Notes under the pieces: generated by a model | Databases searched by the model: none | Told to the model about the DNA's origin: nothing | What the model saw: the letters and a program-made list of their open reading frames with translations, nothing else | Shown: positions 3,753-59,586 of the stretch, piece after piece | Numbering within the stretch: position 1 is the first letter of the stretch | How the letters are laid out: each line of letters opens with the position of its first letter | IMG/VR virus record: IMGVR_UViG_3300035494_000066 | From: a virus | Lineage: Duplodnaviria; Heunggongvirae; Uroviricota; Caudoviricetes | DNA length: 64,000 nt | Reading direction: 5' to 3' (one strand) | Program-made: the position numbers and the translations under genes

Positions 3753-3757
3753 ATAAT

Positions 3758-3841: not shown

Positions 3842-3891
3842 GTAACTGAAGTAGCTAGATTTGAATCTATAACATACTCCAATGAAAAATT

Positions 3892-3965: not shown

Positions 3966-3967
3966 AT

Positions 3968-4043: not shown

Positions 4044-4044
4044 A

Positions 4045-4120
4045 TGGTGCTCGGTGATGGAATCAAACCATCCTGAAACTTGCTTGTAAGGCAAGCGCCT
4101 CCTCAATCGGCCAACCGAGC
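4045..4120 (-). tRNA. tRNA-Val (anticodon TAC)
   Basis: Hand fold. Acceptor gctcggt/accgagc, anticodon arm cttgc-cTTACaa-gcaag, T-arm gatggtttgattccatc, CCA. Confidence 0.65.
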
Positions 4121-4124
4121 AGTT

Positions 4125-4200
4125 TGGTTGTAGTGGTGGGATTTGAACCCACAAACCTTCACATTATGAATGTGCTGCTCTACCATTGAGCTACACTACA
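4125..4200 (-). tRNA. tRNA-Met (anticodon CAT), elongator-type (1:72 paired)
   Basis: Hand fold. Acceptor tgtagtg/cactaca, D gctc/gagc, anticodon loop tTCATaa, T-arm gtgggttcaaatcccac, CCA. Confidence 0.65.
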
Positions 4201-8520: not shown

Positions 8521-8595
8521 TTGGCCTGCCTACCAGGACTCGAACCCGGATTAAAGGAGTAGAAATCCTCTGTGTTATCCGTTACACTATAGGCA
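8521..8595 (-). tRNA. tRNA-Arg (anticodon TCT)
   Basis: Hand fold. Acceptor ctgccta/taggcag, D gtgt/acac, anticodon arm gagga-tTTCTac-tcctt, T-arm ccgggttcgagtcctgg, CCA. Confidence 0.65.
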
Positions 8596-8825
8596 GGTGA
8601 AGTTTTACTTTGTGTGCTGTTTCCAGCGATTTAAATCTCGGAGCAGTTTATCTGCTCGATCAAATACATTTTGTAACATTAACCGTTCGTAGTCAGTTGG
8701 GTCATAACTAGGCGTGCCAACTGTTTCTTCTACTACCGCAGATCGAAGTTCTGCAATTTGAAGCAGCTTGTTGTCAATCCAACTTGTAGTATGGATGCTC
8801 ATTATTACTACTCCTTTTTAATGTA

Positions 8826-8911
8826 TGGTACCGATGAACGGACTCGAACTGTTACGCTATCTCTAGCAGAAGATTTTGAATCTCCTGTGTCTACCATTCC
8901 ACCACATCGGC
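8826..8911 (-). tRNA. tRNA-Leu (anticodon CAA), type II
   Basis: 86 nt. Acceptor gccgatg/catcggt, 3-bp D stem, anticodon arm ggaga-tTCAAaa-tcttc, 15-nt variable arm, T-arm aacagttcgagtccgtt, CCA. Confidence 0.6.
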
Positions 8912-9005
8912 ATAGTATGCGTTTTTACTTATCAGCGTAAGGCCGCACCCCCTGCTAATGAACTTTTTTAACGTAGTGTTCGTCTACGTTCACGGGCGTG
9001 TTGTT

Positions 9006-9186
9006 TGGTGCAAACGACGGGACTCGAACCCGCAATTACAGTTAACAAGGGCATTACTCCTTGCTAGTACAAGATTGGAAAAGCAGTCATCCCGCCTTGA
9101 AACCATGCTCCTGTGCTACTCGCTGTTAGGATTTTACTCCTCACTGTCCTTTTTCAGTGTGCGTATGCCATTTCCGCCACGTTTGC
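9006..9186 (-). ncRNA. tRNA-like RNA: canonical T-arm and 3' acceptor half with CCA, plus a matching 5' acceptor strand 181 nt away (insert of ~105 nt)
   Basis: 3' part gcgggttcgagtcccgt-cgtttgc-a-cca at 9006-9035. The complementary gcaaacg lies at 9180-9186. The interior contains a hairpin cactg-aaaaagga-cagtg. Confidence 0.3.
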
Positions 9187-9196
9187 ATGTTAAAAT

Positions 9197-9270
9197 TGGT
9201 GGGTCTGCCTGGAATCGAACCAGGACCGAGCGGTTATGAGCCGCCTGCTCGACCGTCAAGCTACAGACCC
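9197..9270 (-). tRNA. tRNA with CAT anticodon (Met elongator or Ile2-type; 1:72 paired)
   Basis: Hand fold. Acceptor gggtctg/cagaccc, D gctt/gagc, anticodon arm ggcgg-cTCATaa-ccgct, T-arm cctggttcgattccagg, CCA. Confidence 0.65.
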
Positions 9271-9963
9271 TTAAACTTTATTACTTGCGTAGTATACGCA
9301 TTTTTATTTATTATGTCAAGTATTTTTACATCACACTATACAAGCAGGCGTCTTAGCTGCTCTAGTATTAAAGTAACACCGCATTCTAGACCAACTCGGT
9401 ATAGTTACTTCCTAGACTTCTCTAGTTGACACAATACATGGTCATATAACTGATCGTGTTATATCGCGTCATGTCACTTGCTGTGTGCCGCAGCTATACA
9501 ATGTGATGTAAAAATACGCCTCGCGAAGCGTCACTAGTACCAATTTATCCAGTGATCTCATCTACACCAATGGAGGTCACTGTGATCCGGTGGTAATCGC
9601 CATATGCCTGATCCTGTATTAGGGCACCTGGTTTTACTGGGTTGTAGTTGCCGGTGCTGATCTCCGGCTTGCTGGTTGTGACATCTTAGGTTCCGTTTCA
9701 AACCATACAGCGCTGTATGTACGCGGTTCCCAGCGGCAGTCGGGCCAGCGACCATCTCAAGTCTTGAGATTCTTCGTGCGAGGATAAGTCGCACTTCATC
9801 TCGCGCATCAGCCTGCGCATTTACTACAACTAGAAGCATACTGCTGTTAGTGCTTGTATCGTCCGCACTCTTATACTCAGACAGTCTGCCGCTGCTCTCA
9901 CACCAACTCGCGTATTCTGGCGCAACAGCAATATGCTTGTAGTTTTAGTAAAATACAGTAATC

Positions 9964-10040
9964 TGGTGCCAGTAGTGGGATTCGAACCCACACTTTACAG
10001 AATCTCGACCTGCTACCTCTGCCAATTGGGCTATACTGGC
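9964..10040 (-). tRNA. tRNA-like (type undetermined; possibly degenerate or Leu-GAG-like)
   Basis: Perfect acceptor gccagta/tactggc, T-arm gtgggttcgaatcccac and CCA. D and anticodon arms fold poorly by hand. Confidence 0.35.
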
Positions 10041-10633: not shown

Positions 10634-11080
10634 TTAATGTGATTTTTTCTCTTCGTCGTAGACACGTTTCCGCAGTGATGACGAACTAAACGAATGTTCG
10701 CGATCATTGAACACACACTTGTCCATGTGACCTGAGATGTCTTTGCCTGTAAAGTGCTTGGTTTTGTATTCATCGCCAAGAATACGAACATCATAGTCTA
10801 AGCACAGCAACAAGTCGTGCAAATCCTTCTCTGTGTGGTACACAATTGTGTGGTCTACATAACGTGAGGATGCTACTTGTATTTGGCGCTCAACGATCGA
10901 CTGTACTGGCTTATTCTTTGACGGACGATCTGCACTCGGGTCAATTTGGATTGCTACAATCAAATAGTCACAATGTTTCTTTGCGTCCCGGAACATCAAG
11001 TGATGCCCTGCATGACACAGGTCAAACGCACCAGCAGTAATGCCTACAGTCAAATTCTGTCTATTAGGAATGTCGATCAT
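10634..11080 (-). CDS. cytidylyltransferase-family nucleotidyltransferase (TagD / RfaE domain II-like, HxGH)
   Basis: GAFDLCHAGHHLMF (HxGH), DYLIVAIQID, ILGDEY and a C-terminal SSSSLR motif resemble glycerol-3-phosphate cytidylyltransferase. 148 aa. Confidence 0.6.
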   Translation of the reverse strand: MIDIPNRQNLTVGITAGAFDLCHAGHHLMFRDAKKHCDYLIVAIQIDPSADRPSKNKPVQSIVERQIQVASSRYVDHTIVYHTEKDLHDLLLCLDYDVRILGDEYKTKHFTGKDISGHMDKCVFNDREHSFSSSSLRKRVYDEEKKSH

Positions 11081-11409
11081 AAGTCTCTCTCATATTTTTC
11101 AAAAATAGCGATGAACACCAAGTCATCAGAGCTGCTATCGTTGTATACACGGTGGAAAGCGCCATCAGGTATCATAAAAAGAGAACCGCTCTCAACTTGG
11201 TAGAAATCGTTGTCGATTTGTATGCGGCCTGTCCCGGAATGAAAGATGTAAACCTCTTCAAGCCCTGGATGAGAGTGGCCGCGTGTCTGCATCTCAGGAT
11301 GCAATGTTGTTTTTGATACTGTTAGATGATTTAGGAACGTGTTATCTTCGAGTAAGTAAGTCTCGTTGTCTTTGATAACGGTTCCGTTTAAGTTTTGGAT
11401 TGATGTCAT
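11077..11409 (-). CDS. cupin-domain protein (110 aa)
   Basis: GHSHPGLEEVYIFHSGTGRI cupin motif. Start overlaps the upstream gene stop by 4 nt (coupled). Confidence 0.55.
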   Translation of the reverse strand: MTSIQNLNGTVIKDNETYLLEDNTFLNHLTVSKTTLHPEMQTRGHSHPGLEEVYIFHSGTGRIQIDNDFYQVESGSLFMIPDGAFHRVYNDSSSDDLVFIAIFEKYERDL

Positions 11410-12794: not shown

Positions 12795-12870
12795 TGGCAG
12801 GTCGGGCGAGATTCGAACTCGCAACCTTGGTGTTTGGAGCACCCTGTTCTGCCGTTGGAACTACCGACCT
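12795..12870 (-). tRNA. tRNA-Trp (anticodon CCA)
   Basis: Hand fold. Acceptor aggtcgg/ccgacct, D gttc/gaac, anticodon loop cTCCAaa, T-arm gcgagttcgaatctcgc, CCA. Confidence 0.65.
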
Positions 12871-13057
12871 ATTTTTCTGTTATATCGAACTGACGCGTAG
12901 TATTTACACGTCTTAGCATACGAACTGTCGCTGTGACAGCTGTAATCTGCTTTAATGCACAACCCGTTTCGTGTAGTGCCCCAGTCCTTTATGCGAATAA
13001 AGTTAGTGCAGTTCCCACATGTTCTTCCAGTTGGCATATACATTTACTCTAAAATTG

Positions 13058-13131
13058 GCAGGGGTACCAAGAATTGAACTTGGACCACTGGAGTCAAAGG
13101 CCAGTGCTCTACCATTAAGCTATACCCCTAA
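13058..13131 (-). tRNA. tRNA-Gln (anticodon TTG)
   Basis: Hand fold. Acceptor aggggta/tacccct, D gctt/gagc, anticodon loop cTTTGac, T-arm ccaagttcaattcttgg, CCA. Confidence 0.65.
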
Positions 13132-13136
13132 ATTTG

Positions 13137-13211
13137 GAGGCGTGTGTGGGAATCTAACCCACAAAAACATGATTTGCAGTCATGCCCGTTAACATTCCGG
13201 CAACACGCCAA
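13137..13211 (-). tRNA. tRNA-Cys (anticodon GCA), U73
   Basis: Hand fold. Acceptor ggcgtgt/acacgcc, anticodon arm catga-cTGCAaa-tcatg, T-arm gtgggttagattcccac, discriminator T, CCA. Confidence 0.6.
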
Positions 13212-16382: not shown

Positions 16383-17054
16383 TTAACCTCGCGCTAGTGA
16401 CATAAACTCTGCCCTGGTAGTAGGATCTTCTTTAAAAGCACCGCCTAGCTTGCTTGTTACAGTGCTAGACCCAGTATCTTCTACACCACGCGCTGCTACA
16501 CAATAGTGTTTTGCGTCAATGACTACTGCTACATCTTCTGTTTCGAGAATGTAGCACAAGGCGTGAAAGACTTGCTCAGTAAGCCGTTCCTGGATCTGCG
16601 GCCGTTTCGAGAAGTACTCGACTACCCTGTTAATTTTTGACAATCCTAGGACTTTTTCGTTAGGGATATAGCCAACAGTTGCAAAACCGTCAATGACAAC
16701 AAAGTGGTGTTCGCAGTTGCTCTTGACATTCACATTACGTTCTACAACCATTTCGTTGTAACCCATTTTGTTTTCGACTGTTGTACACTTAGGAAACGCA
16801 TCTGGATCTAAGCCCCAAAACACTTCGCCTACGTACATTTTTGCGACCCGCTTCGGCGTTTCGGCTAAGCTATCGTCACTTAGGTCTAGACCTAAGGTTT
16901 CCATGATGTCTTTAAACTTTGTTTCAATAATATCGATTTTTGCAGTGCGGGAAAGATCTGTTTCAATTGTAGGAGTCGATACGCCTACGCTTGCAAGATG
17001 TTCGTGAACCATACGACCTAATTCAGGGTCGCATTTTGTTTTGTTAAAACTCAA
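16383..17054 (-). CDS. folE: GTP cyclohydrolase I (FolE), TTG start
   Basis: Conserved FolE core NCEHHFVVIDG and overall FolE-like sequence, 223 aa. A TTGACA-17-TATAAT promoter lies at about 17130-17180. Confidence 0.8.
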   Translation of the reverse strand: MSFNKTKCDPELGRMVHEHLASVGVSTPTIETDLSRTAKIDIIETKFKDIMETLGLDLSDDSLAETPKRVAKMYVGEVFWGLDPDAFPKCTTVENKMGYNEMVVERNVNVKSNCEHHFVVIDGFATVGYIPNEKVLGLSKINRVVEYFSKRPQIQERLTEQVFHALCYILETEDVAVVIDAKHYCVAARGVEDTGSSTVTSKLGGAFKEDPTTRAEFMSLARG

Positions 17055-17966: not shown

Positions 17967-18370
17967 CGATAAAACGGTTTCGGAATATGTAACGTTAGTG
18001 TGCCGTTAAATCCTAAGTATGGCATCGGAGGTAGTTCACCGAATTCAGTATGGTACTTTCCGAATCGAAAAATATTCTCTGCCACATTAACATCGTCTAT
18101 GTATAACTCGTCGATTATAACAGCAGTTTCTTTCTCTACATAGTGCTTATTCTGCATGGATACTGTGATTGTAACGTCGTCTAACAACGGTATAGACGTG
18201 TTAACGTGTACATCATTGTACAAGTCGCAATCTAATAGAGTAATGCCGTTTACTGTCACAGTAACGCCAGGGAAGCCGGCGTCGACTATAGGACGTAACT
18301 TAGCTCTTACTTGAAGACGTAGGTCGCTGGTATCCGTGCCGGATAAAAAGTTCTGTATACACTGGGACAT
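17921..18370 (-). CDS. hypothetical protein (149 aa; true start may be internal)
   Basis: Overlaps the rSAM gene by about 70 nt. Confidence 0.4.
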   Translation of the reverse strand: MSQCIQNFLSGTDTSDLRLQVRAKLRPIVDAGFPGVTVTVNGITLLDCDLYNDVHVNTSIPLLDDVTITVSMQNKHYVEKETAVIIDELYIDDVNVAENIFRFGKYHTEFGELPPMPYLGFNGTLTLHIPKPFYRWRHDIKEYGWYITQ

Positions 18371-19610
18371 AATCTAATATTGAATTTTTCCTTACTGCTT
18401 CTATCTTAGTTATAAACGATATCAAGTCAGCAAACCTATAAGTGTCACTAGGCGCCGAGTTAAGATAGTTGATATAACTTGTCACATCATGATACAAACT
18501 TGATTCTACTACAGACGGCGCTCGGGCATTAGGATTAGAAGCACTCCTTGACACCTGTTCGGAGAATGTAGAGTCTCGCCAATTGGTAAGATCCTCGACA
18601 ATCGTTGCTCGAACACTGTCGGGCAAGACAGTTGGCCGCATGTACTCTGGAAATTCCAAGAAATTACAACTCTCTACGCTCATACTGTTTGCAAGTGCGT
18701 ACTCGTATATAGGGATTAGCTTGTGTACAGTAAAGATGGTAGGTGTTGTTCGGAGTTGGATTAACCATTTAACTCCGTCGTTAAGACTTGCCCAGCGATC
18801 TAGCTCAGCTTTTGCATCAGCAATGTTAGATCCGTATCGCACATAGTCATTGACTTCGTCTAGTGACTCAATACTTAGTCCGACATGCACTTGCCTAAAC
18901 TCGTGTAACAAGTGAACGATACTATCGTCCCAGCTGGATAAGTTTGTAGTAAACCCGATTATAACTTTGTTTGCTACACCAGCTGCTACAATTTCATTAA
19001 TTAAACGCTTAAATGCTGGGATAATTAACGTTTCACCGCCGATGAAATGCAAGTATGCCGGCTGATTCAGCTTAACTAGATCATTAACAAATTTGTCAAC
19101 TAGGTCTGGATCATCAGTCCAGTTTTTGTGAGAGTGCGAATCGATTATTTTTGCTTTTATCAAATCGTGCGCTAGTCGGCTACTCGATTCTGGTTTGCAA
19201 AATATACATGCATTATTGCAGTAATTTCCTAGATCTATTTGCCAGTCGACCGGAAATATCTGAGCAGTAGAATCCGTTAGCCTGTCTTTCCATTCTGAGC
19301 TTAGTAGAGATTTTTCAAACGCAGTTATGTCGATACCGGTCTTAATTAGCTGCTGTGCTCTACCACTGGTTTTTCCATACTTGTCCATGTTGTAACACGG
19401 AGTACAATTATGCACAACTTCGCCGTTGACATGTTGTTGCCTAACAGCTTGCATCACATTATTAAAGTATTCCAAAGGAGACATATCGGATATGTGGGGC
19501 ATTGTAGATGGGCGATACGCCCATCTACAATAGTTGTAGTGCCCCGACGCAGTTATCCGGAAATGAAACCAAGGGCTCGAGCAAAATGTTGTTTTGAGGT
19601 CAGACATCAA
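18300..19610 (-). CDS. radical SAM enzyme, SPASM/twitch-type, with N-terminal Cys-rich domain (436 aa)
   Basis: CNNACIFC (CxxxCxxC), [14 protein letters not shown] and ESLDEV blocks parallel the 4734-6197 protein. N-terminal CTPCY...GRAQQ motif. Confidence 0.75.
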
Positions 19611-27744: not shown

Positions 27745-28032
27745 TCAGTATCCCTGTGAATCCTTGATTAGTTCTAGTCGTTCTACTGCTTCGGTGTACA
27801 TGGTTGTCCCTTCTTTGTAAGTCGACAGAATTTCGGCAATGTGTTTGTATTCACGCGCTAATCGCGAAGCGGTATTGCACCAGTCGGCGAGTTCGTCGTA
27901 TGTAGGACAGACCATATACTTATTGCAGCTAGCAGTCTCAACGCCATTTGTTACATGAGCGTATCGAGCCTCTTGTCCGCAATTGCATTTCATCATGAAA
28001 ATTTCCTCTCGTGTTCCATTCGTCGCAAGCAC
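27745..28032 (-). CDS. small Cys-rich zinc-ribbon protein (95 aa)
   Basis: CNCG...CNKYMVCP...WCN cysteine pattern. Confidence 0.4.
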   Translation of the reverse strand: MLATNGTREEIFMMKCNCGQEARYAHVTNGVETASCNKYMVCPTYDELADWCNTASRLAREYKHIAEILSTYKEGTTMYTEAVERLELIKDSQGY

Positions 28033-28751
28033 TGCTCAATCGTCTCGTTAGGCAACATCTCATATGATGTGCCAGTTACTCCGCCCTTCCAAGATCCGGA
28101 ACGCTCGCCGACTTCATTACTGAAACTAATATCAATGCATTTATGTTTCAACTTTAGGAATGGCAGCCATTTGCGATGCCACACTCTTTGCTCAACAGTG
28201 CAAGTTGCATCAACCTCTTGCACTTTTCCACTCTTAAGAGTGTAAGTGTATTTGTGTGTCTCAGTCAATGCCCCGTCTTGACGAAAATCCCACGAGTCTG
28301 GACATCCTTTGGCACCTACTTTGACCCATCCGCCGTCTTTTGACAGTATTTCGTGAGTTTCGAACACCATACTAACAAACGGCAGGTCCCAGCACTTAAC
28401 ACGCGGTTTTGACATCTGGCCAATCGACTCATCAAATTCTCCGCCCCAGTAGAACATTGCAGTATTATTAGAGACACAAAACCCGTATTGAGGTAAATTG
28501 CAACCCTCTGCTAACTTTGTTTTAAATGGCAGCTTGACATGGAACACGCCCCAGATAAAACAAAAGCCGATTGCATAACGTTGATCAAAATAGCCTCCCC
28601 TCATGAGGCGAAGCTCTAGCCCGAACCTAGGAGCAAAATACCCCCATGAGAAATCAATAGAGTCTCTATTGATTCTCCACATGCCTAAGAGATGGTGTAA
28701 AATTTTTTGCCACCAATTGAACTCATACTTTAGGACTTCTCTCATACTCAA
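27993..28751 (-). CDS. hypothetical protein (252 aa)
   Basis: Minus-strand ORF. Confidence 0.45.
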   Translation of the reverse strand: MSMREVLKYEFNWWQKILHHLLGMWRINRDSIDFSWGYFAPRFGLELRLMRGGYFDQRYAIGFCFIWGVFHVKLPFKTKLAEGCNLPQYGFCVSNNTAMFYWGGEFDESIGQMSKPRVKCWDLPFVSMVFETHEILSKDGGWVKVGAKGCPDSWDFRQDGALTETHKYTYTLKSGKVQEVDATCTVEQRVWHRKWLPFLKLKHKCIDISFSNEVGERSGSWKGGVTGTSYEMLPNETIEQCLRRMEHERKFS

Positions 28752-31535: not shown

Positions 31536-32429
31536 TCACTTACCGAGTTGCATCTGACCAGCTACAGTCTGCATCATATCAACCGGCATGAACACCTTGT
31601 TATCGCTTGCTGCCATCTGTTCCATGATCTGGAAGGAACGATATACTTTGTAATTAGGGGTCATACTATCACCCATGATCTTATTGACTTCAGCTTCAGC
31701 ACGGGCTTTCTCAACTTCAATCTTACGGCGCATTTCCTGTTCTTGTAGCTCACGTTCTAGCTGAACCTTGCTAATTTCCAGTTGAGCATTCTCTTGTTCA
31801 ATCTGCTCACGTCGCTCAGCAGCTTTTTCCTGTGCCTGGGTAATGATCGGAGGATATCCTACATCAGCAAGACCGAGGTAACGAACCTTGAAGGGAGTGC
31901 GTTTCTCGATGCTCTCAGCAAGACGACTTGACAGTTCCTTATTGATTGCGTCACGGCTACTAGCAATCTCTGCAATGGTGAACTGACTCAGATACTCTCG
32001 CGCTTCAGATCGAATAATGTCTTTAGCGTAAGTGTTATAAACAGTAGCTAGCGGAATTTGATAAACACGATCATCATCTGTAGGTCTGGGAGTTACCTTT
32101 GCAAACACCTGTTCATAATCATTAGGATTGACAGACAAGGTTGCGCGTAGATCGAAGGTCATCATCAGCTTATCACGAGGCATGAACAGCTCCATCTTCT
32201 CAGTCACGCTCTGGTCTGCAGCATTCAAAGTGACTAGCTTATCACAATACGCCCAACACCAATCCAGGCGGAACTTGGAGGTTGGAATTACGCCTTCCTT
32301 ATATCCGTTTTTGGTCATGACCTTGCCAACTTCAGCTGGAGCAACTTCTGCGACCTGGCCACAACCCACCATGCCAACAGCAAGGCCTGCGATTGCAGCT
32401 ACTTTAAGAATCTTAGACTTAATAGACAT
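31536..32429 (-). CDS. SPFH/band-7 (stomatin/prohibitin/HflKC-like) lipoprotein
   Basis: Lipobox LAVGMVGCG. SPFH-like core followed by a long EQ/RK-rich coiled coil (REQIEQENAQLEISKVQLERELQEQEMRRKIEVEKARAEAE). Confidence 0.55.
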   Translation of the reverse strand: MSIKSKILKVAAIAGLAVGMVGCGQVAEVAPAEVGKVMTKNGYKEGVIPTSKFRLDWCWAYCDKLVTLNAADQSVTEKMELFMPRDKLMMTFDLRATLSVNPNDYEQVFAKVTPRPTDDDRVYQIPLATVYNTYAKDIIRSEAREYLSQFTIAEIASSRDAINKELSSRLAESIEKRTPFKVRYLGLADVGYPPIITQAQEKAAERREQIEQENAQLEISKVQLERELQEQEMRRKIEVEKARAEAEVNKIMGDSMTPNYKVYRSFQIMEQMAASDNKVFMPVDMMQTVAGQMQLGK

Positions 32430-32771: not shown

Positions 32772-33086
32772 TTAATTTAGATCAAAGCTGTGTATGTCTT
32801 GGTTATCCCGGGGGCGGCTGTTAGAAAATTCAGTGTTAACAGTTTCTGGGCAGCGCACGCCTGTTCCTTCTTCGTTGATCAACTGTACTACATCATTCGG
32901 AGTAGACCCGTACCAGCTTAATACGACAAATTGGTATCCTGCTTTGCATATAGTCTCAGGTTTCGGCGGCTCAGGTCTTGCTTGATGCCCTATTATAGGT
33001 GGCAGTAGAATAGCCGCAGCTAGTCCAAGGATTGCTATTATAAGCATTAGTTCGATTAGTGTGAACCCGCGACTGTTGTGAGTCAT
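32772..33086 (-). CDS. prepilin-type N-terminal cleavage/methylation-domain protein (type IV pilin/pseudopilin-like)
   Basis: N-terminus MTHNSRGFTLIELMLIIAILGLAAAILLPP, a class III signal motif G/FTLIE plus a hydrophobic helix. Confidence 0.55.
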   Translation of the reverse strand: MTHNSRGFTLIELMLIIAILGLAAAILLPPIIGHQARPEPPKPETICKAGYQFVVLSWYGSTPNDVVQLINEEGTGVRCPETVNTEFSNSRPRDNQDIHSFDLN

Positions 33087-34856: not shown

Positions 34857-36476
34857 TTACTTGTACGCTGCTAGTCGTTGCCGGATATCACTTAGTGTAC
34901 TAGTGTTGTACATCACACCATTGCAATATCTCAGTTTAAGTTCGCCGGTTGCAGCTTGCTCTTCGGTTTGCTGATCATACAGTACAAAAGAACCGTTTTC
35001 TTTTTCAACTCGCAGCAGACCTTTTGCCGACTTCTTAACGCCAGAGTCTGTAGCAGGGTCTTTAAAGATCTCCCGGCCAACGCCGTCGACCTCGCCGTAT
35101 GTTGCTTTCATTGCGTAGCCCAGGCTATCGCGTGTGTTGTACTGGTATGTATACGACCCGATGCCAAACACAACGTTGGTGCTAGCAAAACCTTTGTCTT
35201 TGAGTCGTTGCATAATTGCATCTGCCCGATCGAGTGTAATCGAATCACCGTAAATCAACCCGATGTGCTCGTCGAGGAGTTTATAACCCATTCCGGTCAC
35301 GGTACCTCCGAACGTGTCCCAAAGACACTCAACTGCTCCCTTAACTTCTGCTTCGCTAAGTTCGACAGAAGAGTTGTAATCATCACTTGGATCAGAGACT
35401 GTTCTAATAACACCGCGATACTTGTACGCTTCGTACTTCTCTTGTACGAGCTCTGGGTAACTTAGCTCATGATTAGCGTCCATGTCGTACATTTTATAGC
35501 CTGTTAGGATTTTAACAGGATCGCCTGAATCAGGGCGCAGTACTACTTTGGACAACCCGATTGCATTCCGGTCCCGTTTCATGATGCCATCTTTCAGTTT
35601 TGGCATGTACTCAGTCACCACTTTCCAGAAATCCCACGTGTCAGACACAACTGACACAACACCAGCTGGGTACAAGTCGAAGATAATACGCCGGAACGTT
35701 TCGATTTCTTCGTCTTTTTGGCCTAGGCACATAACCGAGTGTTCTGTTGCTGGAACACTAATGCCAACAATCTCATTGTCAGAATTAGCACCGTAGTACT
35801 CTTCTAGGTAATCAATTGCAGGAACTGTGTCAGTGCCGATAAACGATAGCAAGTGTCCGGAGCACGAACTTGCAGCATCGTGCAGGCCGCTCATACCGCG
35901 GAAGCTGAAGTCGTGTCCCTGGATTGCACTGAAATCAGTATTGCCTACAGTCTCTAGTGCATAACGATCGATGATACGTCGGTAATCTTTTGCAATAGTA
36001 GCAACAGTCGAAGGCTTCCACAGTTCGGCTGACATTACGCTTTCGATGTAGTTCACTAGCCAGTAAAACTGCGAGTAGCCAGGACTAACATCTACTGTTA
36101 CTGTTGGGATTTTTGCGCCGACCATTTCGCCTTCATCGATGCCTTTGATTGTTAGCGGCAAGAACCCTAGGTCGTGTAGTTCACCGATGTGCTCTACAGG
36201 AACGGCATTCATTCCGAGCGCGTTGTCCAGTCGACGTTTGTATTTTCTTACCACTTTCGCTTTCGGCTTACTAAAAAATGTATCACGCCAGTGATCGATG
36301 AGATACCATTTAATAAAGCCCTGCAGACCGAACACAACAGCAGTGTCACTCGTGCCTTTGTACAGTCGCATAGAACGAGGAGTAAAGTTAGAATACACTC
36401 GGGTAGTACCCGGAGTATATTGCCGGCGATGATCTGCTTTATAAAAATCAATCGCAGTTGGTGCAAATAGGTTCAT
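34857..36476 (-). CDS. nadV: nicotinamide phosphoribosyltransferase (Nampt/NadV)
   Basis: 539 aa. Nampt-like sequence throughout (type II phosphoribosyltransferase). Resembles KVP40-type phage NadV. Confidence 0.75.
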   Translation of the reverse strand: MNLFAPTAIDFYKADHRRQYTPGTTRVYSNFTPRSMRLYKGTSDTAVVFGLQGFIKWYLIDHWRDTFFSKPKAKVVRKYKRRLDNALGMNAVPVEHIGELHDLGFLPLTIKGIDEGEMVGAKIPTVTVDVSPGYSQFYWLVNYIESVMSAELWKPSTVATIAKDYRRIIDRYALETVGNTDFSAIQGHDFSFRGMSGLHDAASSCSGHLLSFIGTDTVPAIDYLEEYYGANSDNEIVGISVPATEHSVMCLGQKDEEIETFRRIIFDLYPAGVVSVVSDTWDFWKVVTEYMPKLKDGIMKRDRNAIGLSKVVLRPDSGDPVKILTGYKMYDMDANHELSYPELVQEKYEAYKYRGVIRTVSDPSDDYNSSVELSEAEVKGAVECLWDTFGGTVTGMGYKLLDEHIGLIYGDSITLDRADAIMQRLKDKGFASTNVVFGIGSYTYQYNTRDSLGYAMKATYGEVDGVGREIFKDPATDSGVKKSAKGLLRVEKENGSFVLYDQQTEEQAATGELKLRYCNGVMYNTSTLSDIRQRLAAYK

Positions 36477-36529
36477 GGATGATCCTTTGGTTTAATTTAA
36501 AAGTAGAGTTGTAAGTAACACAATTAACG

Positions 36530-36841
36530 TTAAGTGCCGCGCGTACCCCAGGTGGGCATTTCGAAGCATCCTTCGAGGTTTTCGATGCGAGTGGCTTCTA
36601 GGTACAAATCTGTAAATTCTTTACCGTATACTTCGTACCATTTTTTGACTTTACCTTCCGGAGCATACATGTAGCTAAAGCAGCAAGCATCAGACCAAAA
36701 TTTTCGGGCTTCGTCAGTGTAGCCGGCGTCGAGGATACATTGTTTGCATCGATTAATAACACCGTCCTCAAACCCGGCCCGGAAGTCTTTTGCAATAAGA
36801 GATGTTAGTAACGGGGTGCAAAGTTTAGCAACTATAGACAT
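36530..36841 (-). CDS. hypothetical Cys-rich protein (103 aa)
   Basis: Minus-strand ORF. Confidence 0.4.
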   Translation of the reverse strand: MSIVAKLCTPLLTSLIAKDFRAGFEDGVINRCKQCILDAGYTDEARKFWSDACCFSYMYAPEGKVKKWYEVYGKEFTDLYLEATRIENLEGCFEMPTWGTRGT

Positions 36842-36860
36842 TGTCGATACCTCTCAGAGT

Positions 36861-37061
36861 TTAGGCTCCGAGTGCGTAGAGTTCGTAGTTGAGTTCTTCT
36901 TGGTAATCGTTATAGCGTACATGGTCGTCTTCTGCAAGCATTGCAACTTGCTTATCAGTTAGCAGCAGGAAGTGATCGAACATGTTAACTAGTGTACCGT
37001 CTTCGTTACGGTCTAGTGCACGGAACTCTTTCATAGTGTACTTCTTAGTACGAGCGTTCAT
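36861..37061 (-). CDS. hypothetical protein (66 aa)
   Basis: Minus-strand ORF. Confidence 0.3.
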   Translation of the reverse strand: MNARTKKYTMKEFRALDRNEDGTLVNMFDHFLLLTDKQVAMLAEDDHVRYNDYQEELNYELYALGA

Positions 37062-37164
37062 ATCGCTGACCTCGTTTCCTTAGTTGATATGCATAGTATA
37101 CAACCAAAGAAAAGAGAAGTCGACTCTTTTTTGGCAAATTAATTAGTTTAATAGAACAGTAGTG

Positions 37165-38076
37165 TTACACTGACGCAACGATCAACTCGATGTTTGCATC
37201 TGCAGCAGAGTCGAAACTGTCTTGGTTAACAAACGTGTTTGTTGTAATAACAGTATCAATCAGGTTACTAAAAGGTTCGAAGCCTTTTGAAAAAATACCA
37301 TGCGGTGCTGCTAGTGTTACACTAGCCGGATTTAGTTCTTGCAAACGTTCTGCAATTTTAATGAACGTCATCCCACCGTCAACTATGTCGTCGTAAATAA
37401 TCACATGTGCAGACTCGACGTCTTCTCTTGCAGCGCGAACCGTAGTACGTACAATCTGACCGTTAGAAACATTCCTAACTTTGTCTGCACAAACAACACT
37501 AACAGTTGGCGCTTCTGCGTTCGTAGTAGCGTTATACGTGTTCCATTTAGTAACAAAGTCGAGTGTACGCTTAGTTGCACCAGCGTCTGGGCTGAGCACT
37601 ACTACGTTTTTCTTGGTTTCGGAATACAAAGAGTTGCCGTATGCAATCAGTTTATTATTCCACTTGGTTGTCATCGTCTCGGTTTCGACATTGTCGATAA
37701 GAGCACCAGTTACGTCCGAGTGAGGCATTAGTGTATACACAACATCAAATCCTAAGGAATTAATGATATTAGCCATCACCTTGATACCAAACGCCTCGCC
37801 TTCGGTGCACACTCGATCCTGTCGGCCGTACGGTACATAAGGCACTTTTAGGACTAGGTGCTTCGGTTTGTATGTTCGCTTAACAGCATCAGTTAGTAGC
37901 ACTAGCGCAACAATATCGCTGGCAGATTTGAGTTCAGCTGTAATAGTTGTTACGTTACTACGACCTAGTAGATTCGGAGTGCACTTCGGATGTAGTTCGC
38001 CGCCTGCAAACTCAATCCATCTAACATCAGCAATAGACCCGTCATTAGTGACTGTAAAGTTAGTTTTAGTTGTCAT
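37165..38076 (-). CDS. prs: ribose-phosphate pyrophosphokinase (PRPP synthetase)
   Basis: 303 aa. PRPP-binding region IIYDDIVDGGMT and Prs-like N-domain. Confidence 0.7.
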   Translation of the reverse strand: MTTKTNFTVTNDGSIADVRWIEFAGGELHPKCTPNLLGRSNVTTITAELKSASDIVALVLLTDAVKRTYKPKHLVLKVPYVPYGRQDRVCTEGEAFGIKVMANIINSLGFDVVYTLMPHSDVTGALIDNVETETMTTKWNNKLIAYGNSLYSETKKNVVVLSPDAGATKRTLDFVTKWNTYNATTNAEAPTVSVVCADKVRNVSNGQIVRTTVRAAREDVESAHVIIYDDIVDGGMTFIKIAERLQELNPASVTLAAPHGIFSKGFEPFSNLIDTVITTNTFVNQDSFDSAADANIELIVASV

Positions 38077-45358: not shown

Positions 45359-46225
45359 TTAGCGAAAGTTTACTTCGTACTGGAGTTCTATTTCAGGTTT
45401 TGTCTTATTACATAATTTGTTTACACTACACACAATAGAACATGTTTTTTCTGGCGAATCCGATGTCCATGACGGTGCAACATCATCGATTGTTTTATGT
45501 ACTCCGAATATTCCGAAAAAGCAGCACGGGAATAAATCTCCTTTTGCATCGATGTATGCTTTCTTGCCGCGCAAACTAAGGCAATCGATGTGTCCCGGTT
45601 CAGAAGCAGGAGGTACCCAGCCAGTTGGATATTCTAATCCCGGAACCAATGCACGGGTACTTACTTTTGCACGGAATTGAGCAAACCCCAGTGATCTCGC
45701 TAACTCGATGCAGTCTTCTACTTGGTGTTCGTTGTGCTTATATATTAGCATATCCCAGCGGGCATTCCCCCCGGCGTTGATGAACGTCTGTACATTATCA
45801 ATAAGCTTATTCCAGTTGACATTCCGACGGTATATATGATTAGTGTCTGCTAATCCGTCGATGCTAAATGTAACATAATCTGTTTCGTACGAAAGAATGT
45901 CAGCAAGCTCTGCCCACCAACTCGGGCTTCGAATAGCACCGTTGGTGTTTATCGAAAGAGAGCACAGCGGGTTAATCTGTTTAGTTTGTTTTAATATATC
46001 CAGTGTGTGGCGGCCAGCAGCAGGATCGCCGAAGTTCCCGCAGAGTAGCAATCGCTTAAGTTGCTTAATCTGCTCGATGCTAAAATGCGTTAGCACTTGT
46101 TCGAATGACAAATGATTGTTTGACCTTTTATCAAACAATCCAGCGTCTTCTCTAGGACATTGCGGGCAAGCTGCCTGACATACATCAGTACTTTCTAAGT
46201 GTAATACGTTAATTTCTCTGATCAT
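45359..46225 (-). CDS. radical SAM enzyme, SPASM/twitch-type (288 aa)
   Basis: CQAACPQC (CxxxCxxC) at the N-terminus. LCGNFGDP and SINTNGA blocks. C-terminal Cys cluster CLSLRG...PCCFFG. Confidence 0.7.
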   Translation of the reverse strand: MIREINVLHLESTDVCQAACPQCPREDAGLFDKRSNNHLSFEQVLTHFSIEQIKQLKRLLLCGNFGDPAAGRHTLDILKQTKQINPLCSLSINTNGAIRSPSWWAELADILSYETDYVTFSIDGLADTNHIYRRNVNWNKLIDNVQTFINAGGNARWDMLIYKHNEHQVEDCIELARSLGFAQFRAKVSTRALVPGLEYPTGWVPPASEPGHIDCLSLRGKKAYIDAKGDLFPCCFFGIFGVHKTIDDVAPSWTSDSPEKTCSIVCSVNKLCNKTKPEIELQYEVNFR

Positions 46226-53358: not shown

Positions 53359-53829
53359 TCATGCTTCGTATTCTACACAAGTAAACTCAACATCATACAG
53401 TTGTTCGACATCAAGAAGAATTTGTTCAATGATGTTCCAGTCACCGCCTCCTAGCCCACATCCGATATACTTCGGGATGATCAACTCATAGTCAACTTCG
53501 TCGGAGTCGCTATTTACTAGTTGTGTTATTGCGTTTACGAATGCGGCGTAATTAGTATGTCGCTCGCCAGTTCCATAATTAAACTGTGAGAATAGACCGA
53601 CTACACTATGATATGAATCGATCATAGTAAAAAAGTACTCACCAAACATTTCACTAGAACCAAAATGATCTACACACTCTTTGTAGTCATCAAAATGATT
53701 TGGATATGTGTCTCGAATCTGCTTTGCAATACCAGAACCCATTACACCTTGGCAATTTACTTGATGTATGAGGACTGCAGATTTCGAGTTTTTGAAAACT
53801 TCAATTGCGTCGCCGCTAATGTATTTCAT
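53359..53829 (-). CDS. macro-domain (ADP-ribose-binding/processing) protein
   Basis: LIHQVNCQGVMGSGIAKQI and IGCGLGGGDW match the macro-domain nucleotide-binding loops. 156 aa. Confidence 0.6.
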   Translation of the reverse strand: MKYISGDAIEVFKNSKSAVLIHQVNCQGVMGSGIAKQIRDTYPNHFDDYKECVDHFGSSEMFGEYFFTMIDSYHSVVGLFSQFNYGTGERHTNYAAFVNAITQLVNSDSDEVDYELIIPKYIGCGLGGGDWNIIEQILLDVEQLYDVEFTCVEYEA

Positions 53830-59115: not shown

Positions 59116-59586
59116 TTAAGATCCTTGTTGTTCTAAATTAGTGTAATAACTGCGCAAGGTTGGGATATTTGCTGCTTCAAGAAGTGTATAATAAACCCAG
59201 TGATTATGGCCAGCGTATGACTCGAGATACTCATCGCCGAGCATAAAATATTCATTAACAAACTTTGCAACAGCGCCGGATCGACTAATGCCAGCAAAGC
59301 AATGAACGATCACATCTTTCTTTCGGCGAAACGATTCGTCAACAAAGCTAACAATAGTCTTTGCTTTGTTCTCAGTAAACCCACTCTGATCAGACGAGAT
59401 ATCTGCAAAATTAAGAAAAATTGCAGCTGACTCAGCGGACTTGTTTGCAACCCACATGTCTCGCATTTGATTCTTTTCCGAGTTTGTGTCGCTAATCGAA
59501 ATAAAGTCAACAGCATTCTTCTCAAAATACCCACTGAGAACTAGTTTGATTGCTTCTGCCCGCGACACGAACTTTACAGATTTCAT
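59116..59586 (-). CDS. dual-specificity/tyrosine protein phosphatase (CX5R)
   Basis: VHCFAGISRSG matches the HCxxGxxRS P-loop. Confidence 0.65.
   Translation of the reverse strand: MKSVKFVSRAEAIKLVLSGYFEKNAVDFISISDTNSEKNQMRDMWVANKSAESAAIFLNFADISSDQSGFTENKAKTIVSFVDESFRRKKDVIVHCFAGISRSGAVAKFVNEYFMLGDEYLESYAGHNHWVYYTLLEAANIPTLRSYYTNLEQQGS

What the first reader, a model, noticed from the sequence alone, without database searches (positions are those of the whole stretch)
34857..38076. Nampt (NadV) plus PRPP synthetase (Prs) pair: NAD+ reconstitution pathway 2-type module
Nicotinamide phosphoribosyltransferase and ribose-phosphate pyrophosphokinase lie 700 bp apart on the same strand. This pairing is the described NARP2 route. 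It rebuilds NAD+ from nicotinamide and so counters NAD+-depleting defence systems such as Thoeris, DSR and SIR2-based systems. The same pair is also the KVP40-type NadV/NatV logic.

An NMN adenylyltransferase is not obvious. The HxGH cytidylyltransferase-like gene at 10634-11080 is a possible but unproven candidate.
Basis: established knowledge. Interest (0 to 1): 0.5.

Follow-up and report, generated by a model that had tools for sequence, protein, structure and literature searches.

The report
Phage NARP1 NAD+ rebuilding genes, mislabelled NARP2

Summary
Two intact minus-strand genes sit at exactly 34857-36476 (539 aa, Nampt family) and 37165-38076 (303 aa, Prs family), 688 bp apart. The label is wrong. 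In the literature a Prs-like plus Nampt-like pair defines NARP1 (Adps + Namat); NARP2 and KVP40 NadV/NatV are Nampt + Nmnat with no Prs. The 539-aa protein best matches the SpbetaL1 Namat crystal structure (510 bits vs 204 for human NAMPT). It carries the published Namat clamp signature (GSYTYQYNTRD) and the clamp-loop Arg, and falls on the Namat side of a 100%-bootstrap split from KVP40/human Nampt. The 303-aa protein keeps the mutationally tested Adps residues and the Adps-type loops. It scores like verified Adps and far below every canonical Prs cut-off. No Nmnat is needed, and none is in the window; the HxGH protein is a TagD/RfaE-II-type nucleotidyltransferase. Two features are unusual. 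The genes are split by a ~670-bp insertion carrying two ORFan genes, absent from the sister phage. A Poa1p-type Macro protein homologous to the NARP1-AP phosphatase Adpp lies 15 kb away at 53359-53829. Verdict: new member of a known kind, modest interest.

The parts
37165..38076 (-). adps: Prs-fold ADP-ribose pyrophosphokinase (ADPR + ATP -> ADPR-PP + AMP), 303 aa. First enzyme of NARP1.
   Evidence: blastp gives ICP1 Adps (biochemically and structurally verified) 126 bits, Bas63 Adps 108 bits, and E. coli Prs 59.7 bits, the lowest of 31 references. An HMM of 17 published Namat-associated phage Adps scores the window protein at 241 bits and E. coli Prs at 134. ICP1 residues F18, R87, H121, D161, K185, D212, D213 and D216 map to window F23, R85, H119, D164, K199, D229, D230 and D233. 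The loops are Adps-type: DDIVDGGMTF (Prs has DDMIDTGGTL) and PHSDV (Prs has LHAEQIQGFF). Against NCBIfam NF002320 (cut-off 297) it scores 95.5 bits, in the 78-101 bit range of ICP1 Adps (80), Bas63 Adps (100.8) and the Acinetobacter copy (78); all other Prs equivalog models also score far below their cut-offs. A Namat gene lies three genes downstream.
34857..36476 (-). namat: Nampt-fold nicotinamide ADP-ribose transferase (ADPR-PP + nicotinamide -> NAD+ + PPi), 539 aa. Second enzyme of NARP1.
   Evidence: The best solved structure is 9W5X/9W5W, SpbetaL1 Namat, at E 6e-152 and 510 bits; human NAMPT scores 204 bits. The clamp helix is GSYTYQYNTRD (aa 440-450), which fits the published GSX-Phi-X-Phi-X-Phi-TRD signature. 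KVP40 NadV has GGGLLQQLDRD and human NAMPT has GGGLLQKLTRD at the same columns. The clamp-loop Arg37 aligns with SpbetaL1 Arg40. The NJ split {KVP40 Nampt, human NAMPT} versus the rest has 100% bootstrap, with the window on the Namat side. Identity is 53% to SpbetaL1, 46% to Bas63, 29% to KVP40 and 33% to human. All 8 catalytic-core residues are conserved. A ~50-aa insertion (aa ~327-375) after the RPDSGDP strand lies in a region that is also expanded in the functional Bas63 Namat.
36861..37061 (-). ORF66: 66-aa gene of unknown function, inserted between adps and namat.
   Evidence: Same strand. The Shine-Dalgarno AAGGAAACGAGG ends 9 nt before the ATG, and a promoter-like TCGACT-N17-TATACT (9/12, not above chance) lies upstream. 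It was called as a gene in the public assemblies that cover it. No Pfam or PHROG hit, even at Pfam E<=5. No aRad1 or Adpp similarity. Absent from the sister phage L014.
36530..36841 (-). ORF103: 103-aa ORFan gene inserted between adps and namat.
   Evidence: The Shine-Dalgarno GAGAGG ends 8 nt before the ATG. Its only match among 5.8 billion proteins is itself, on 5 contigs, the longest 302,565 bp. No Pfam or PHROG hit. The AF2 single-sequence model is all-helical but low-confidence, pLDDT 53.5. Absent from the sister phage L014.
53359..53829 (-). Candidate adpp: Poa1p-type Macro-domain protein (156 aa), homologous to the ADPR-1''-phosphate phosphatase of the extended NARP1-AP pathway. It lies 15 kb from adps/namat.
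   Evidence: An HMM of Gary Adpp (verified) plus PN09 Macro gives E 3.9e-15; phmmer gives Gary 2.7e-09 and PN09 6.6e-14. PDB hits include yeast ADP-ribose 1''-phosphate phosphatase 6LFU/6LFQ at E 5e-07 to 1e-06. It shares the H..NC, MGSGIA and IGCGLGGGDW motifs. It is homologous (E 1.8e-14) to the 176-aa gene that sits between adps and namat in relative L015, which itself matches the Adpp model at E 8.6e-26. Activity and linkage to NARP1 are inferred.

Best explanation
The two genes are the NARP1 pathway of an uncultured jumbo phage of roughly 300 kb. When a host NADase defence (Thoeris, DSR1/2, SIR2-HerA, SEFIR and similar) cleaves NAD+ into ADP-ribose and nicotinamide, the 303-aa Prs-fold enzyme (Adps) transfers the beta,gamma-pyrophosphate of ATP onto the 1'' position of ADP-ribose, giving ADPR-PP. 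The 539-aa Nampt-fold enzyme (Namat) then joins ADPR-PP to nicotinamide and releases NAD+ directly. No NMN intermediate and no NMN adenylyltransferase are involved.

Shown here: the fold families; conservation of all catalytic residues; the Namat-specific adenine clamp; the Adps-type loops; placement of the Namat among verified Namat and away from verified Nampt; and the gene neighbourhood.

Inferred from family: the actual substrates, and escape from defence.

The pair is split by a lineage-specific ~670-bp insertion carrying two small ORFan genes, probably co-transcribed and of unknown role. A Poa1p-type Macro protein 15 kb away may supply the ADPR-1''-phosphatase step (Adpp). That step lets extended NARP1 (NARP1-AP) also beat aRES-type defences.
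For: Definitions: a Prs-like + Nampt-like operon is NARP1; Nampt + Nmnat is NARP2.

Namat:
- The best PDB hit is the SpbetaL1 Namat structure 9W5X/9W5W, at 510 bits against 204 for human NAMPT.
- The exact clamp-helix signature GSYTYQYNTRD and clamp-loop Arg37 are present.
- A 100%-bootstrap split separates verified Nampt (KVP40, human) from a group holding the window protein and verified Namat.
- The nearest phage relatives, SKML-39 and phiA8-29, are labelled 'Adps-associated' in the authors' own table.

Adps:
- All catalytic or mutationally tested residues are kept, and the loops are Adps-type.
- 126 and 108 bits to verified ICP1 and Bas63 Adps, against 59.7 to E. coli Prs. An Adps HMM gives the window 241 bits and E. 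coli Prs 134.
- It fails every canonical Prs equivalog cut-off by about three-fold, exactly as verified Adps do.
- Namat lies within 10 genes, which is the authors' operational criterion.

No Nmnat, Nudix, NadR or PnuC domain occurs in any of 107 screened ORFs.

The sister phage L014 has the two genes adjacent, 20 bp apart. Relative L015 has adps-adpp-x-namat.
Against: - No biochemistry was done on these proteins.
- Namat enzymes keep about half of Nampt's PRPP-dependent NMN-forming activity in vitro (PMC12774641), so some NMN production cannot be excluded.
- The Adps/Prs tree backbone was unresolved and included only one canonical Prs, so formal clade membership of the 303-aa protein was not demonstrated.
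- ICP1 Phe92, an adenine contact, is Cys in the window protein. It is also non-aromatic in Bas63 and most other Adps.
- The two genes are not adjacent, as they are in most NARP1 operons. Only 64 kb of a ~300-kb genome was examined, so an Nmnat elsewhere cannot be ruled out.
- PHROG and NCBIfam names do not distinguish the two readings.
Confidence: 0.87

Rival explanations
1. The 303-aa protein is a true PRPP synthetase feeding PRPP to a true Nampt, which makes NMN. NMN is then adenylylated to NAD+ by an Nmnat encoded elsewhere in the phage, by the HxGH protein, or by the host.
For: Database names say Prs and Nampt. Namat retains PRPP-dependent NMN synthesis in vitro. The closest homologues are chromosomal prs-nadV operons of gamma-proteobacteria, long interpreted as PRPP-to-NMN salvage. 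About 240 kb of the genome is unseen.
Against: The 539-aa protein has the adenine clamp that verified PRPP-preferring enzymes (KVP40, human) lack, and is separated from them by a 100%-bootstrap split. The 303-aa protein scores 60-95 bits on canonical Prs equivalog models whose cut-offs are about 300-540, and has Adps-type loops. The HxGH protein hits RfaE-II, TagD and ECT, and no NMNAT family. No Nmnat or Nudix is found among 107 window ORFs. The authors found no phage with both NARP1 and NARP2, and 94% of NARP2 Nampt clade members have an Nmnat. The third gene of the 'prs-nadV' bacterial operons is NrtR, not an Nmnat.
Confidence: 0.07
2. The module is metabolic rather than counter-defensive. 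It tops up or recycles NAD+ for phage replication regardless of host immunity, or it is a recently acquired bacterial housekeeping prs2-nadV cassette with no role in infection.
For: The closest Namat homologue outside uncultured phages is Acinetobacter chromosomal nadV (62%), and the Adps relatives include marine gamma-proteobacterial chromosomal paralogues under NrtR control. Osterman et al. allow for housekeeping roles of bacterial NARP1.
Against: NARP1 consumes ADPR, which was reported as scarce in uninfected B. subtilis cells unless an NADase fires. The phage copy lacks nrtR. The same window carries other anti-defence genes, an Acb3 CBASS inhibitor and an Adpp-like Macro protein. The genes are intact, and are retained in related phages L014 and L015/L016. 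The phage DNA ligase is ATP-dependent, so there is no obvious special NAD+ demand.
Confidence: 0.05

Closest known systems
NARP1 (Adps + Namat) of Bacillus phage SPbetaL1, E. coli phage Bas63 and Vibrio phage ICP1 (Osterman et al. 2024; Namat structure 9W5X/9W5W, PMC12774641; ICP1 Adps structures, PMC13586617)
   Same: Same two folds, same gene order (adps upstream of namat, same strand), same catalytic residues, the same Namat adenine-clamp signature, the same Adps-type PP and acceptor loops, and no Nmnat.
   Different: Sequence is divergent (Adps 26-32%, Namat 46-53% identical to the verified members). The two genes are separated by 688 bp holding two ORFan genes instead of being adjacent. 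Namat carries a ~50-aa insertion relative to SpbetaL1. The host and phage are uncultured.
NARP1-AP (adps-adpp-namat) of Vibrio phage Gary (bioRxiv 10.64898/2026.01.28.702374)
   Same: The phage encodes homologues of all three enzymes. Relative L015/L016 has the canonical layout, with the Macro gene between adps and namat.
   Different: In the window the Macro gene is 15 kb away (53359-53829). The position between adps and namat is occupied instead by two unrelated small ORFs that are neither Macro nor aRad1.
NARP2 / KVP40 NadV + NatV (Nampt + bifunctional Nmnat-Nudix)
   Same: The outcome is the same (NAD+ restored, NADase defences countered), and one enzyme has the Nampt fold.
   Different: NARP2 has no Prs-like gene, needs an Nmnat and uses PRPP. 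Its Nampt lacks the clamp aromatics (GGGLLQQLDRD) and is only 29% identical to the window protein. No Nmnat is present in the window.
NrtR-regulated prs-nadV operons of gamma-proteobacteria (Acinetobacter, Shewanella, Pseudoalteromonas; Rodionov et al. 2008, PMC2330246)
   Same: These are the closest cellular homologues of both window proteins (Namat 52-62%, Adps 33-39%). They have the same gene order and the same clamp signature in the NadV-like protein (GSFTYNYLTRD, GSYSYQYVTRD).
   Different: They are chromosomal and flanked by the ADPR-responsive repressor NrtR, which the phage lacks. Their function has been described as PRPP-dependent nicotinamide salvage. Whether they are really bacterial NARP1 has been tested only for a Paenibacillus pair (PMC12774641).

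Membership tests
NARP1 | An Adps-type Prs homologue and a Namat-type Nampt homologue encoded close together (authors' criterion: Namat within 10 genes of Adps) | tested here: met
   adps at 37165-38076 and namat at 34857-36476 are on the same strand with two small genes between them.
Namat (nicotinamide ADPR-transferase) | Selectivity-clamp helix signature GS-X-Phi1-X-Phi2-X-Phi3-TRD, with aromatic X at positions 3 and 7 | tested here: met
   The window has G440-S-Y-T-Y-Q-Y-N-T-R-D450. SpbetaL1 has GSFTYQYNTRD and Bas63 has GSYTYQYMTRD. Verified Nampt enzymes lack the signature: KVP40 GGGLLQQLDRD, human GGGLLQKLTRD.
Namat (nicotinamide ADPR-transferase) | Selectivity-clamp loop (beta1-beta2) supplying an Arg, Lys or Tyr that stacks on adenine | tested here: met
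   Window Arg37 aligns with SpbetaL1 Arg40. The loop is longer than in KVP40 NadV. The stacking geometry itself was not modelled.
Namat (nicotinamide ADPR-transferase) | Conserved Nampt-like catalytic core (SpbetaL1 Asp13, Tyr15, Phe189, Arg192, Asp215, catalytic His, Arg306, Asp308) | tested here: met
   Window D10, Y12, F190, R193, D216, H246, R314 and D316 are all conserved. This feature is shared with Nampt, so it shows an active enzyme but does not discriminate.
Namat (nicotinamide ADPR-transferase) | Phylogenetic placement in the Adps-associated clade, apart from the Nmnat-associated Nampt clade | tested here: met
   In a 13-sequence NJ tree, {KVP40, human} versus the rest has 100% bootstrap, with the window on the Namat side. 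The nearest phage relatives are labelled Adps-associated in the authors' Table S2. The taxon sample is small.
Namat (nicotinamide ADPR-transferase) | Preference for ADPR-PP over PRPP as donor | not testable with these tools
   Needs an enzyme assay.
Adps (ADPR pyrophosphokinase) | Catalytic beta-hairpin Lys (ICP1 K185 / SpbetaL1 K162) and acceptor-site residues R87, H121, D161, D212, D213, D216 | tested here: met
   Window K199, R85, H119, D164, D229, D230 and D233. Most of these are shared with Prs, so this shows an active enzyme rather than specificity.
Adps (ADPR pyrophosphokinase) | Remodelled PP-loop / donor site conserved among Adps homologues and different from canonical PRPS | tested here: met
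   The window has DDIVDGGMTF. Adps have DDICDG(G/A)x(T/S)F and E. coli Prs has DDMIDTGGTL. The window also has PHSDV against Prs LHAEQIQGFF, and an RF loop one residue shorter than in Prs. The canonical side rests on one Prs sequence only.
Adps (ADPR pyrophosphokinase) | Adenine-contact aromatics Phe18 and Phe92 (ICP1 numbering) | tested here: inconclusive
   Phe18 maps to window F23 and is conserved, but it is also Phe in E. coli Prs. Phe92 maps to window C90; it is Cys or Met in Bas63, SKML-39, phiA8-29 and Acinetobacter too, so it is not a family-wide feature.
Adps (ADPR pyrophosphokinase) | Membership of the well-supported Adps clade, separate from prokaryotic Prs | tested here: inconclusive
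   The NJ tree backbone is unresolved (deep bootstraps <=30%) and there is only one canonical Prs outgroup. Supporting but indirect: an Adps HMM gives the window 241 bits and E. coli Prs 134. E. coli Prs is the weakest of 31 blastp hits. All Prs equivalog cut-offs are missed, as they are for verified Adps.
Adps (ADPR pyrophosphokinase) | Loss of the C-terminal alpha11-alpha12 filament and regulatory module of PRPS | tested here: inconclusive
   The window protein is 303 aa against 315 in E. coli Prs, and ends before the terminal Prs helix in alignment A3. The alignment is unreliable there, and no structure was compared.
NARP2 | Nmnat (NMN adenylyltransferase) encoded by the phage together with a PRPP-preferring Nampt | tested here: not met
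   There is no NadM-like hit and only one HxGH ORF. That ORF is RfaE-II/TagD/ECT-class, with no NMNAT model hit at E<=1e-3. No Nudix, NadR or other CTP_transf_like domain occurs in 107 ORFs. The Nampt-fold protein carries Namat features, not Nampt features. Caveat: only 64 kb of ~300 kb was seen.
NARP1-AP | Macro-domain (Poa1p-like) ADPR-1''-phosphatase within two genes of the NARP1 genes | tested here: not met
   A Poa1p-type Macro homologue of Adpp exists (E 3.9e-15; PDB 6LFU 5e-07), but it lies at 53359-53829, 15 kb and more than 20 genes away. The homology part is met and the operon-position part is not. The two ORFs that do lie inside the operon are not Macro domains.
Canonical Prs (ribose-phosphate diphosphokinase) | Score above NCBIfam equivalog/subfamily cut-offs for Prs | tested here: not met
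   NF002320 95.5 bits against 297, NF002095 92.5 against 296, NF002844 69 against 438, and so on. Only the broad TIGR01251 is passed, marginally (119.6 against 113).

The most novel reading that the evidence does not exclude
The two ORFan genes (66 aa and 103 aa) inserted exactly where other phages place the Adpp phosphatase are new accessory factors of the NAD+ arms race. They might, for example, be small inhibitors of a host NADase, or of a host enzyme that diverts ADPR or ADPR-PP. On this reading the adps-namat junction is a hot spot where phages swap such add-ons: the window has two ORFans, L015 has Adpp plus a Zn-ribbon protein, L016 has an extra gene inside namat, and L014 has nothing.
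Probability: 0.12. Interest if true: 0.6.

Novelty: new member of a known kind. Interest (0 to 1): 0.3.

Why it matters
The finding corrects an annotation trap. 'Prs' plus 'Nampt' in a phage reads as PRPP-dependent salvage with a missing Nmnat, but it is the self-sufficient NARP1 route, so the predicted chemistry, substrates and knockout phenotypes all change.

It adds a divergent jumbo-phage member to NARP1. It shows that in this lineage the operon can be split, and that the Adpp phosphatase can be encoded at a distance. Operon-based surveys ('Macro within two genes') would therefore undercount NARP1-AP capability.

It also highlights that the nearest cellular relatives are the NrtR-controlled prs-nadV operons. 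NrtR is released from DNA by ADP-ribose. That fits the idea that these long-puzzling operons, with their dedicated second prs, are bacterial NARP1.

None of this changes the field's picture; it is a solid, ordinary example with a few useful wrinkles.

Tried and rejected
- **PHROG family membership as a discriminator: rejected.** E. coli Prs also hits phrog_619 (193 bits) and KVP40 NadV also hits phrog_448 (549 bits).
- **NJ phylogeny of Adps/Prs: inconclusive.** 32 sequences, 200 bootstraps. The backbone is unresolved, distances are saturated, and there is a single canonical Prs. An earlier Biopython attempt timed out.
- **Acinetobacter 'NMNAT/ADPR-pyrophosphatase' next to the closest homologue: rejected.** I considered it as support for the NARP2-like reading, but it is NrtR (NUDIX + PF21906) with no HxGH motif.
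- **HxGH 148-aa protein as Nmnat: rejected**.
- **ORF66 and ORF103 as Macro/Adpp or aRad1: rejected.** No Pfam hit at E<=5; aRad1 HMM best E 1.5, on unrelated ORFs.
- **Structure prediction of ORF103:** pLDDT 53.5, unusable, so no fold search was run.
- **dN/dS on the small ORFs: impossible.** The public copies are 100% identical apart from one 1-bp gap, in adps in L010.
- **Terminator between adps and ORF66: not supported.** The hairpin has z = -0.95, and the promoter-like match is not above chance.
- **Searches that found nothing:** megablast against 50,697 phage records, and an IMG/VR scan with the Adps.
- **KVP40 natV was not located.** The primer pattern is absent from the two KVP40 stretches fetched. 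Nmnat absence was tested instead by motif and Pfam screens.
- **Not pursued:** PDB 9KE8 (third-best hit, GAQTYQRNTRD, groups with SpbetaL1 Namat) was not identified. A repeat finder failed on strand syntax and was not repeated.

Full report
**1. The observation**

The window has two long minus-strand ORFs at exactly the coordinates given: 34857-36476 (539 aa) and 37165-38076 (303 aa). They are 688 bp apart.

- The 539-aa protein is an unambiguous Nampt-family member: NCBIfam NF006629 at 536 bits (cut-off 405), PF04095 plus PF18127, and phrog_448 at E 1.7e-186.
- The 303-aa protein is a Prs-fold protein: TIGR01251 at 119.6 bits (cut-off 113), PF00156 plus PF13793, and phrog_619 at E 5.6e-69.

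**2. What the literature calls this pair**

Osterman et al. (bioRxiv 10.1101/2024.02.11.579819) started from precisely this annotation pattern, a two-gene phage operon annotated Prs + Nampt.

- They showed that the 'Prs' is Adps (ADPR + ATP -> ADPR-PP) and the 'Nampt' is Namat (ADPR-PP + nicotinamide -> NAD+). This is NARP1.
- NARP2 is the KVP40 pair NadV (Nampt) + NatV (Nmnat). It contains no Prs.
- 94% of phages with a KVP40-type Nampt also have an Nmnat, and no phage had both pathways.

Whether the window proteins really belong to the Adps and Namat clades still had to be tested.

**3. Namat versus Nampt**

- *Solved structures.* The best match of the 539-aa protein is 9W5X/9W5W (E 6e-152, 510 bits); human NAMPT scores 204 bits. 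Those entries are the SpbetaL1 Namat crystal structures (PMC12774641).
- *Clamp.* That paper defines a Namat-specific adenine 'selectivity clamp'. It has a conserved helix motif GS-X-Phi-X-Phi-X-Phi-TRD with aromatic X, and a variable loop contributing an Arg, Lys or Tyr. The window protein has GSYTYQYNTRD (aa 440-450), and Arg37 aligns with SpbetaL1 Arg40.
- *Controls.* Verified or NARP1-linked Namat carry the motif: SpbetaL1 GSFTYQYNTRD, Bas63 GSYTYQYMTRD, ICP1 GSYTYQYVTRD. The verified PRPP-preferring enzymes have GGGLLQQLDRD (KVP40 NadV) and GGGLLQKLTRD (human) at the same columns.
- *Tree.* In a 13-sequence NJ tree with 500 bootstraps, the split {KVP40, human} versus all others has 100% support, and the window protein is on the Namat side.
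- *Identity.* 53% to SpbetaL1, 46% to Bas63, 53% to ICP1, 29% to KVP40, 33% to human.
- *Catalytic core.* All eight core residues are conserved.
- *Authors' classification.* Table S2 labels the nearest phage relatives, SKML-39 and phiA8-29, as 'Adps-associated'.
- *Insertion.* A ~50-aa insertion after the RPDSGDP strand falls in a region that is even longer in the functional Bas63 Namat.

**4. Adps versus Prs**

The ICP1 Adps structures (PMC13586617) identify F18, R87, F92, H121, D161, K185 (essential), D212, D213, D216, and a remodelled PP loop.

- *Residues.* In the window protein these map to F23, R85, C90, H119, D164, K199, D229, D230 and D233. Only F92 differs, and it is non-aromatic in Bas63 and most other Adps as well.
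- *Loops.* The loops match Adps rather than E. coli Prs: DDIVDGGMTF (Adps DDICDGGRTF; Prs DDMIDTGGTL) and PHSDV (Prs LHAEQIQGFF). The RF loop is one residue shorter than in Prs.
- *Pairwise scores.* ICP1 Adps 126 bits, Bas63 Adps 108, and E. coli Prs 59.7, the weakest of 31 references. Seen from E. coli Prs, the window protein scores exactly as ICP1 Adps does, 59.7 bits.
- *Adps HMM.* An HMM built from 17 published Namat-associated phage Adps scores the window at 241 bits and E. coli Prs at 134.
- *Prs models.* Against NCBI's Prs subfamily model NF002320 (cut-off 297) the window scores 95.5 bits, in the 78-101 bit range of ICP1 Adps (80), Bas63 Adps (100.8) and the Acinetobacter copy (78), and all four score equally far below the equivalog cut-offs.

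Two attempted discriminators failed. PHROG families lump both enzyme types together. My NJ tree of the Prs/Adps family was unresolved at depth and had only one canonical Prs. Formal clade membership of the Adps is therefore inferred from several concordant lines rather than demonstrated.

**5. The Nmnat question**

- Only one genuine ORF in the window has an HxGH motif, the 148-aa protein at 10634-11080.
- Its best matches are RfaE domain II (heptose-1-P adenylyltransferase), glycerol-3-P cytidylyltransferase and ethanolamine-P cytidylyltransferase. No NadD, NadR or NadM model hits at E<=1e-3.
- It overlaps a cupin gene at its 5' end, suggesting a sugar or polyol nucleotide role.
- A Pfam screen of 107 non-overlapping ORFs returned complete lists of 15 and 18 families. 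It found no other nucleotidyltransferase and no Nudix, NadR, PnuC or SIR2.
- Only 64 kb of a ~300-kb genome is visible, so absence from the rest cannot be shown.

**6. A rival that had to be taken seriously**

The closest database 'phage' hit (Namat 62%) is a record named Acinetobacter phage MD-2021a. That record is really bacterial chromosome: it carries ABC transporter, AraC and TauE genes. It has prs-nadV followed by a gene annotated 'bifunctional NMNAT/ADPR pyrophosphatase', which would favour a Prs-Nampt-Nmnat reading.

The third gene has no HxGH motif and is NUDIX plus the NrtR winged-helix domain (PF21906, 78 bits). It is the regulator NrtR. Pseudoalteromonas shows the same nrtR<>prs2-nadV layout.

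Rodionov et al. 2008 (PMC2330246) showed that NrtR is released from the prs-nadV operator by ADP-ribose. They remarked that the purpose of a dedicated second prs was 'yet to be elucidated'. These NadV-like proteins carry the Namat clamp motif (GSFTYNYLTRD, GSYSYQYVTRD). The simplest reading is that they are bacterial NARP1. This fits Osterman's remark on housekeeping NARP1 and the Paenibacillus pair tested in PMC12774641. It weakens the rival rather than supporting it.

**7. Source and relatives**

- Megablast against 50,697 phage records finds nothing.
- The exact Namat protein occurs in at least 10 public assemblies, some on 0.2-1 Mb contigs. ORF103 occurs on a 302,565-bp contig.
- The window has 29 tRNA genes and essentially all large ORFs on one strand. 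This is an uncultured jumbo phage.
- The cellular relatives of its Adps are marine gamma-proteobacteria.
- The public copies of the region are 100% identical apart from one 1-bp gap, in adps in L010.

**8. The split operon**

- In the sister phage L014 (Adps 68%, Namat 92% identical, same upstream lysin and neighbours), adps and namat are 20 bp apart. At the DNA level, ~755 bp in the window correspond to 84 bp in L014. ORF66 and ORF103 therefore lie on a ~670-bp segment that the window has and L014 lacks.
- Both small ORFs have good Shine-Dalgarno sequences.
- No significant terminator separates them from adps (hairpin z = -0.95).
- ORF103 is an ORFan. Neither ORF hits Pfam even at E<=5.
- In the more distant relative L015/L016, the same junction holds a 176-aa and a 116-aa Zn-ribbon ORF. 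In L016, namat itself is interrupted by an opposite-strand gene.

**9. A third component**

The aRES paper (bioRxiv 10.64898/2026.01.28.702374) describes NARP1-AP. It is adps-adpp-namat, where Adpp is a Poa1p-like Macro-domain ADPR-1''-phosphatase. Adpp lets NARP1 beat RES-domain defences that produce ADPR-1''-P. I built small HMMs from the published Adpp and aRad1 sequences.

- The L015 176-aa insert is an Adpp homologue (E 8.6e-26).
- The window's inserted ORFs match neither model.
- The window does encode an Adpp homologue elsewhere, at 53359-53829 (E 3.9e-15). Its PDB hits include yeast ADPR-1''-P phosphatase 6LFU/6LFQ (E ~5e-07), and it shares the H..NC, MGSGIA and IGCGLGGGDW motifs.
- The phage therefore probably has NARP1-AP capability with a dispersed gene layout. 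An operon-based survey (Macro within two genes) would miss it.

**10. Verdict**

The finding is real and is a counter-defence NAD+ module, but it is NARP1, not NARP2. My confidence in NARP1 is about 0.87. NARP1 is present in ~4% of sequenced phages, so this is a new, divergent member of a known kind. The modest points of interest are:

- the two ORFan genes inserted at a junction that seems to be a hot spot for accessory genes;
- the distant Adpp homologue;
- the link to NrtR-controlled bacterial operons.

Substrate specificities and defence escape remain inferred and need the assays listed under next steps.

Noticed in passing
window 53359-53829 (-): 156-aa Poa1p-type Macro-domain protein homologous to Adpp, the verified ADPR-1''-phosphate phosphatase of NARP1-AP (E 3.9e-15; PDB 6LFU 5e-07). 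It lies 15 kb from adps/namat. Pfam at E<=1e-4 did not flag it as Macro.
   Followed up: yes
window 27993-28751 (-): 252-aa protein with a full-length match to PF25187 'CBASS inhibitor Acb3' (205 bits, cut-off 27). This is a second, independent anti-defence gene in the window.
   Followed up: partly
window 59116-59586 (-); L015:10193-10672: Dual-specificity phosphatase (DSPc), E 1.4e-59 to its homologue in relative L015/L016, where it lies two genes downstream of namat. Any link to ADPR or NAD metabolism is untested.
   Followed up: partly
L002 (CAKLQF020000015.1, 'Acinetobacter phage MD-2021a'), 4078-7295: This 'phage' record is bacterial chromosome DNA. Its gene annotated as bifunctional NMNAT/ADPR pyrophosphatase is really the regulator NrtR (NUDIX + PF21906). 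The prs-nadV pair beside it carries Namat/Adps features, as does Pseudoalteromonas L017. NrtR is derepressed by ADPR, so these operons look like ADPR-inducible bacterial NARP1.
   Followed up: partly
L016:7771-10114: In one relative, namat is split into two ORFs by a 241-aa gene on the opposite strand, possibly a homing-endonuclease-type insertion. The near-identical L015 has an intact 511-aa namat.
   Followed up: no
window 18-4200, 8522-10040, 12795-13209: 29 tRNA genes, all on the minus strand, including duplicates (Ile, Asp, Tyr, Phe, Pro, Ala, Glu, Met) and one with an odd two-base anticodon call at 3968-4043.
   Followed up: no
window 10634-11409 (-): The HxGH protein (TagD/RfaE-II-class nucleotidyltransferase) overlaps an upstream 110-aa cupin gene by 4 bp. 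This looks like a small sugar or polyol nucleotide modification pair rather than NAD metabolism.
   Followed up: partly
window 4734-6197, 16383-17054, 18300-19610, 45359-46225 (-): GTP cyclohydrolase I (FolE) plus three radical-SAM proteins, one a twitch-domain type (NF033640, 236 bits). This may be a 7-deazaguanine or other nucleotide or DNA-modification route.
   Followed up: no
window 32772-33086 and 31536-32429 (-): A type-IV-pilin-like protein with an N-terminal methylation motif (PF07963) and an SPFH/Band-7 protein lie just downstream of the NARP1 region. The same pair flanks NARP1 in relatives L015/L016.
   Followed up: no
PHROG phrog_12872 (547-position profile): Adps-type proteins match its N-terminal ~220 positions and Namat-type proteins match its C-terminal part, so the family appears to represent natural Adps-Namat fusion proteins.
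   Followed up: no
PDB 9KE8/9KEO: The third-best structural match (397 bits) is deposited as 'nicotinamide phosphoribosyltransferase'. It has an intermediate clamp motif (GAQTYQRNTRD) and groups with SpbetaL1 Namat (76% bootstrap). Its origin and specificity were not identified.
   Followed up: no
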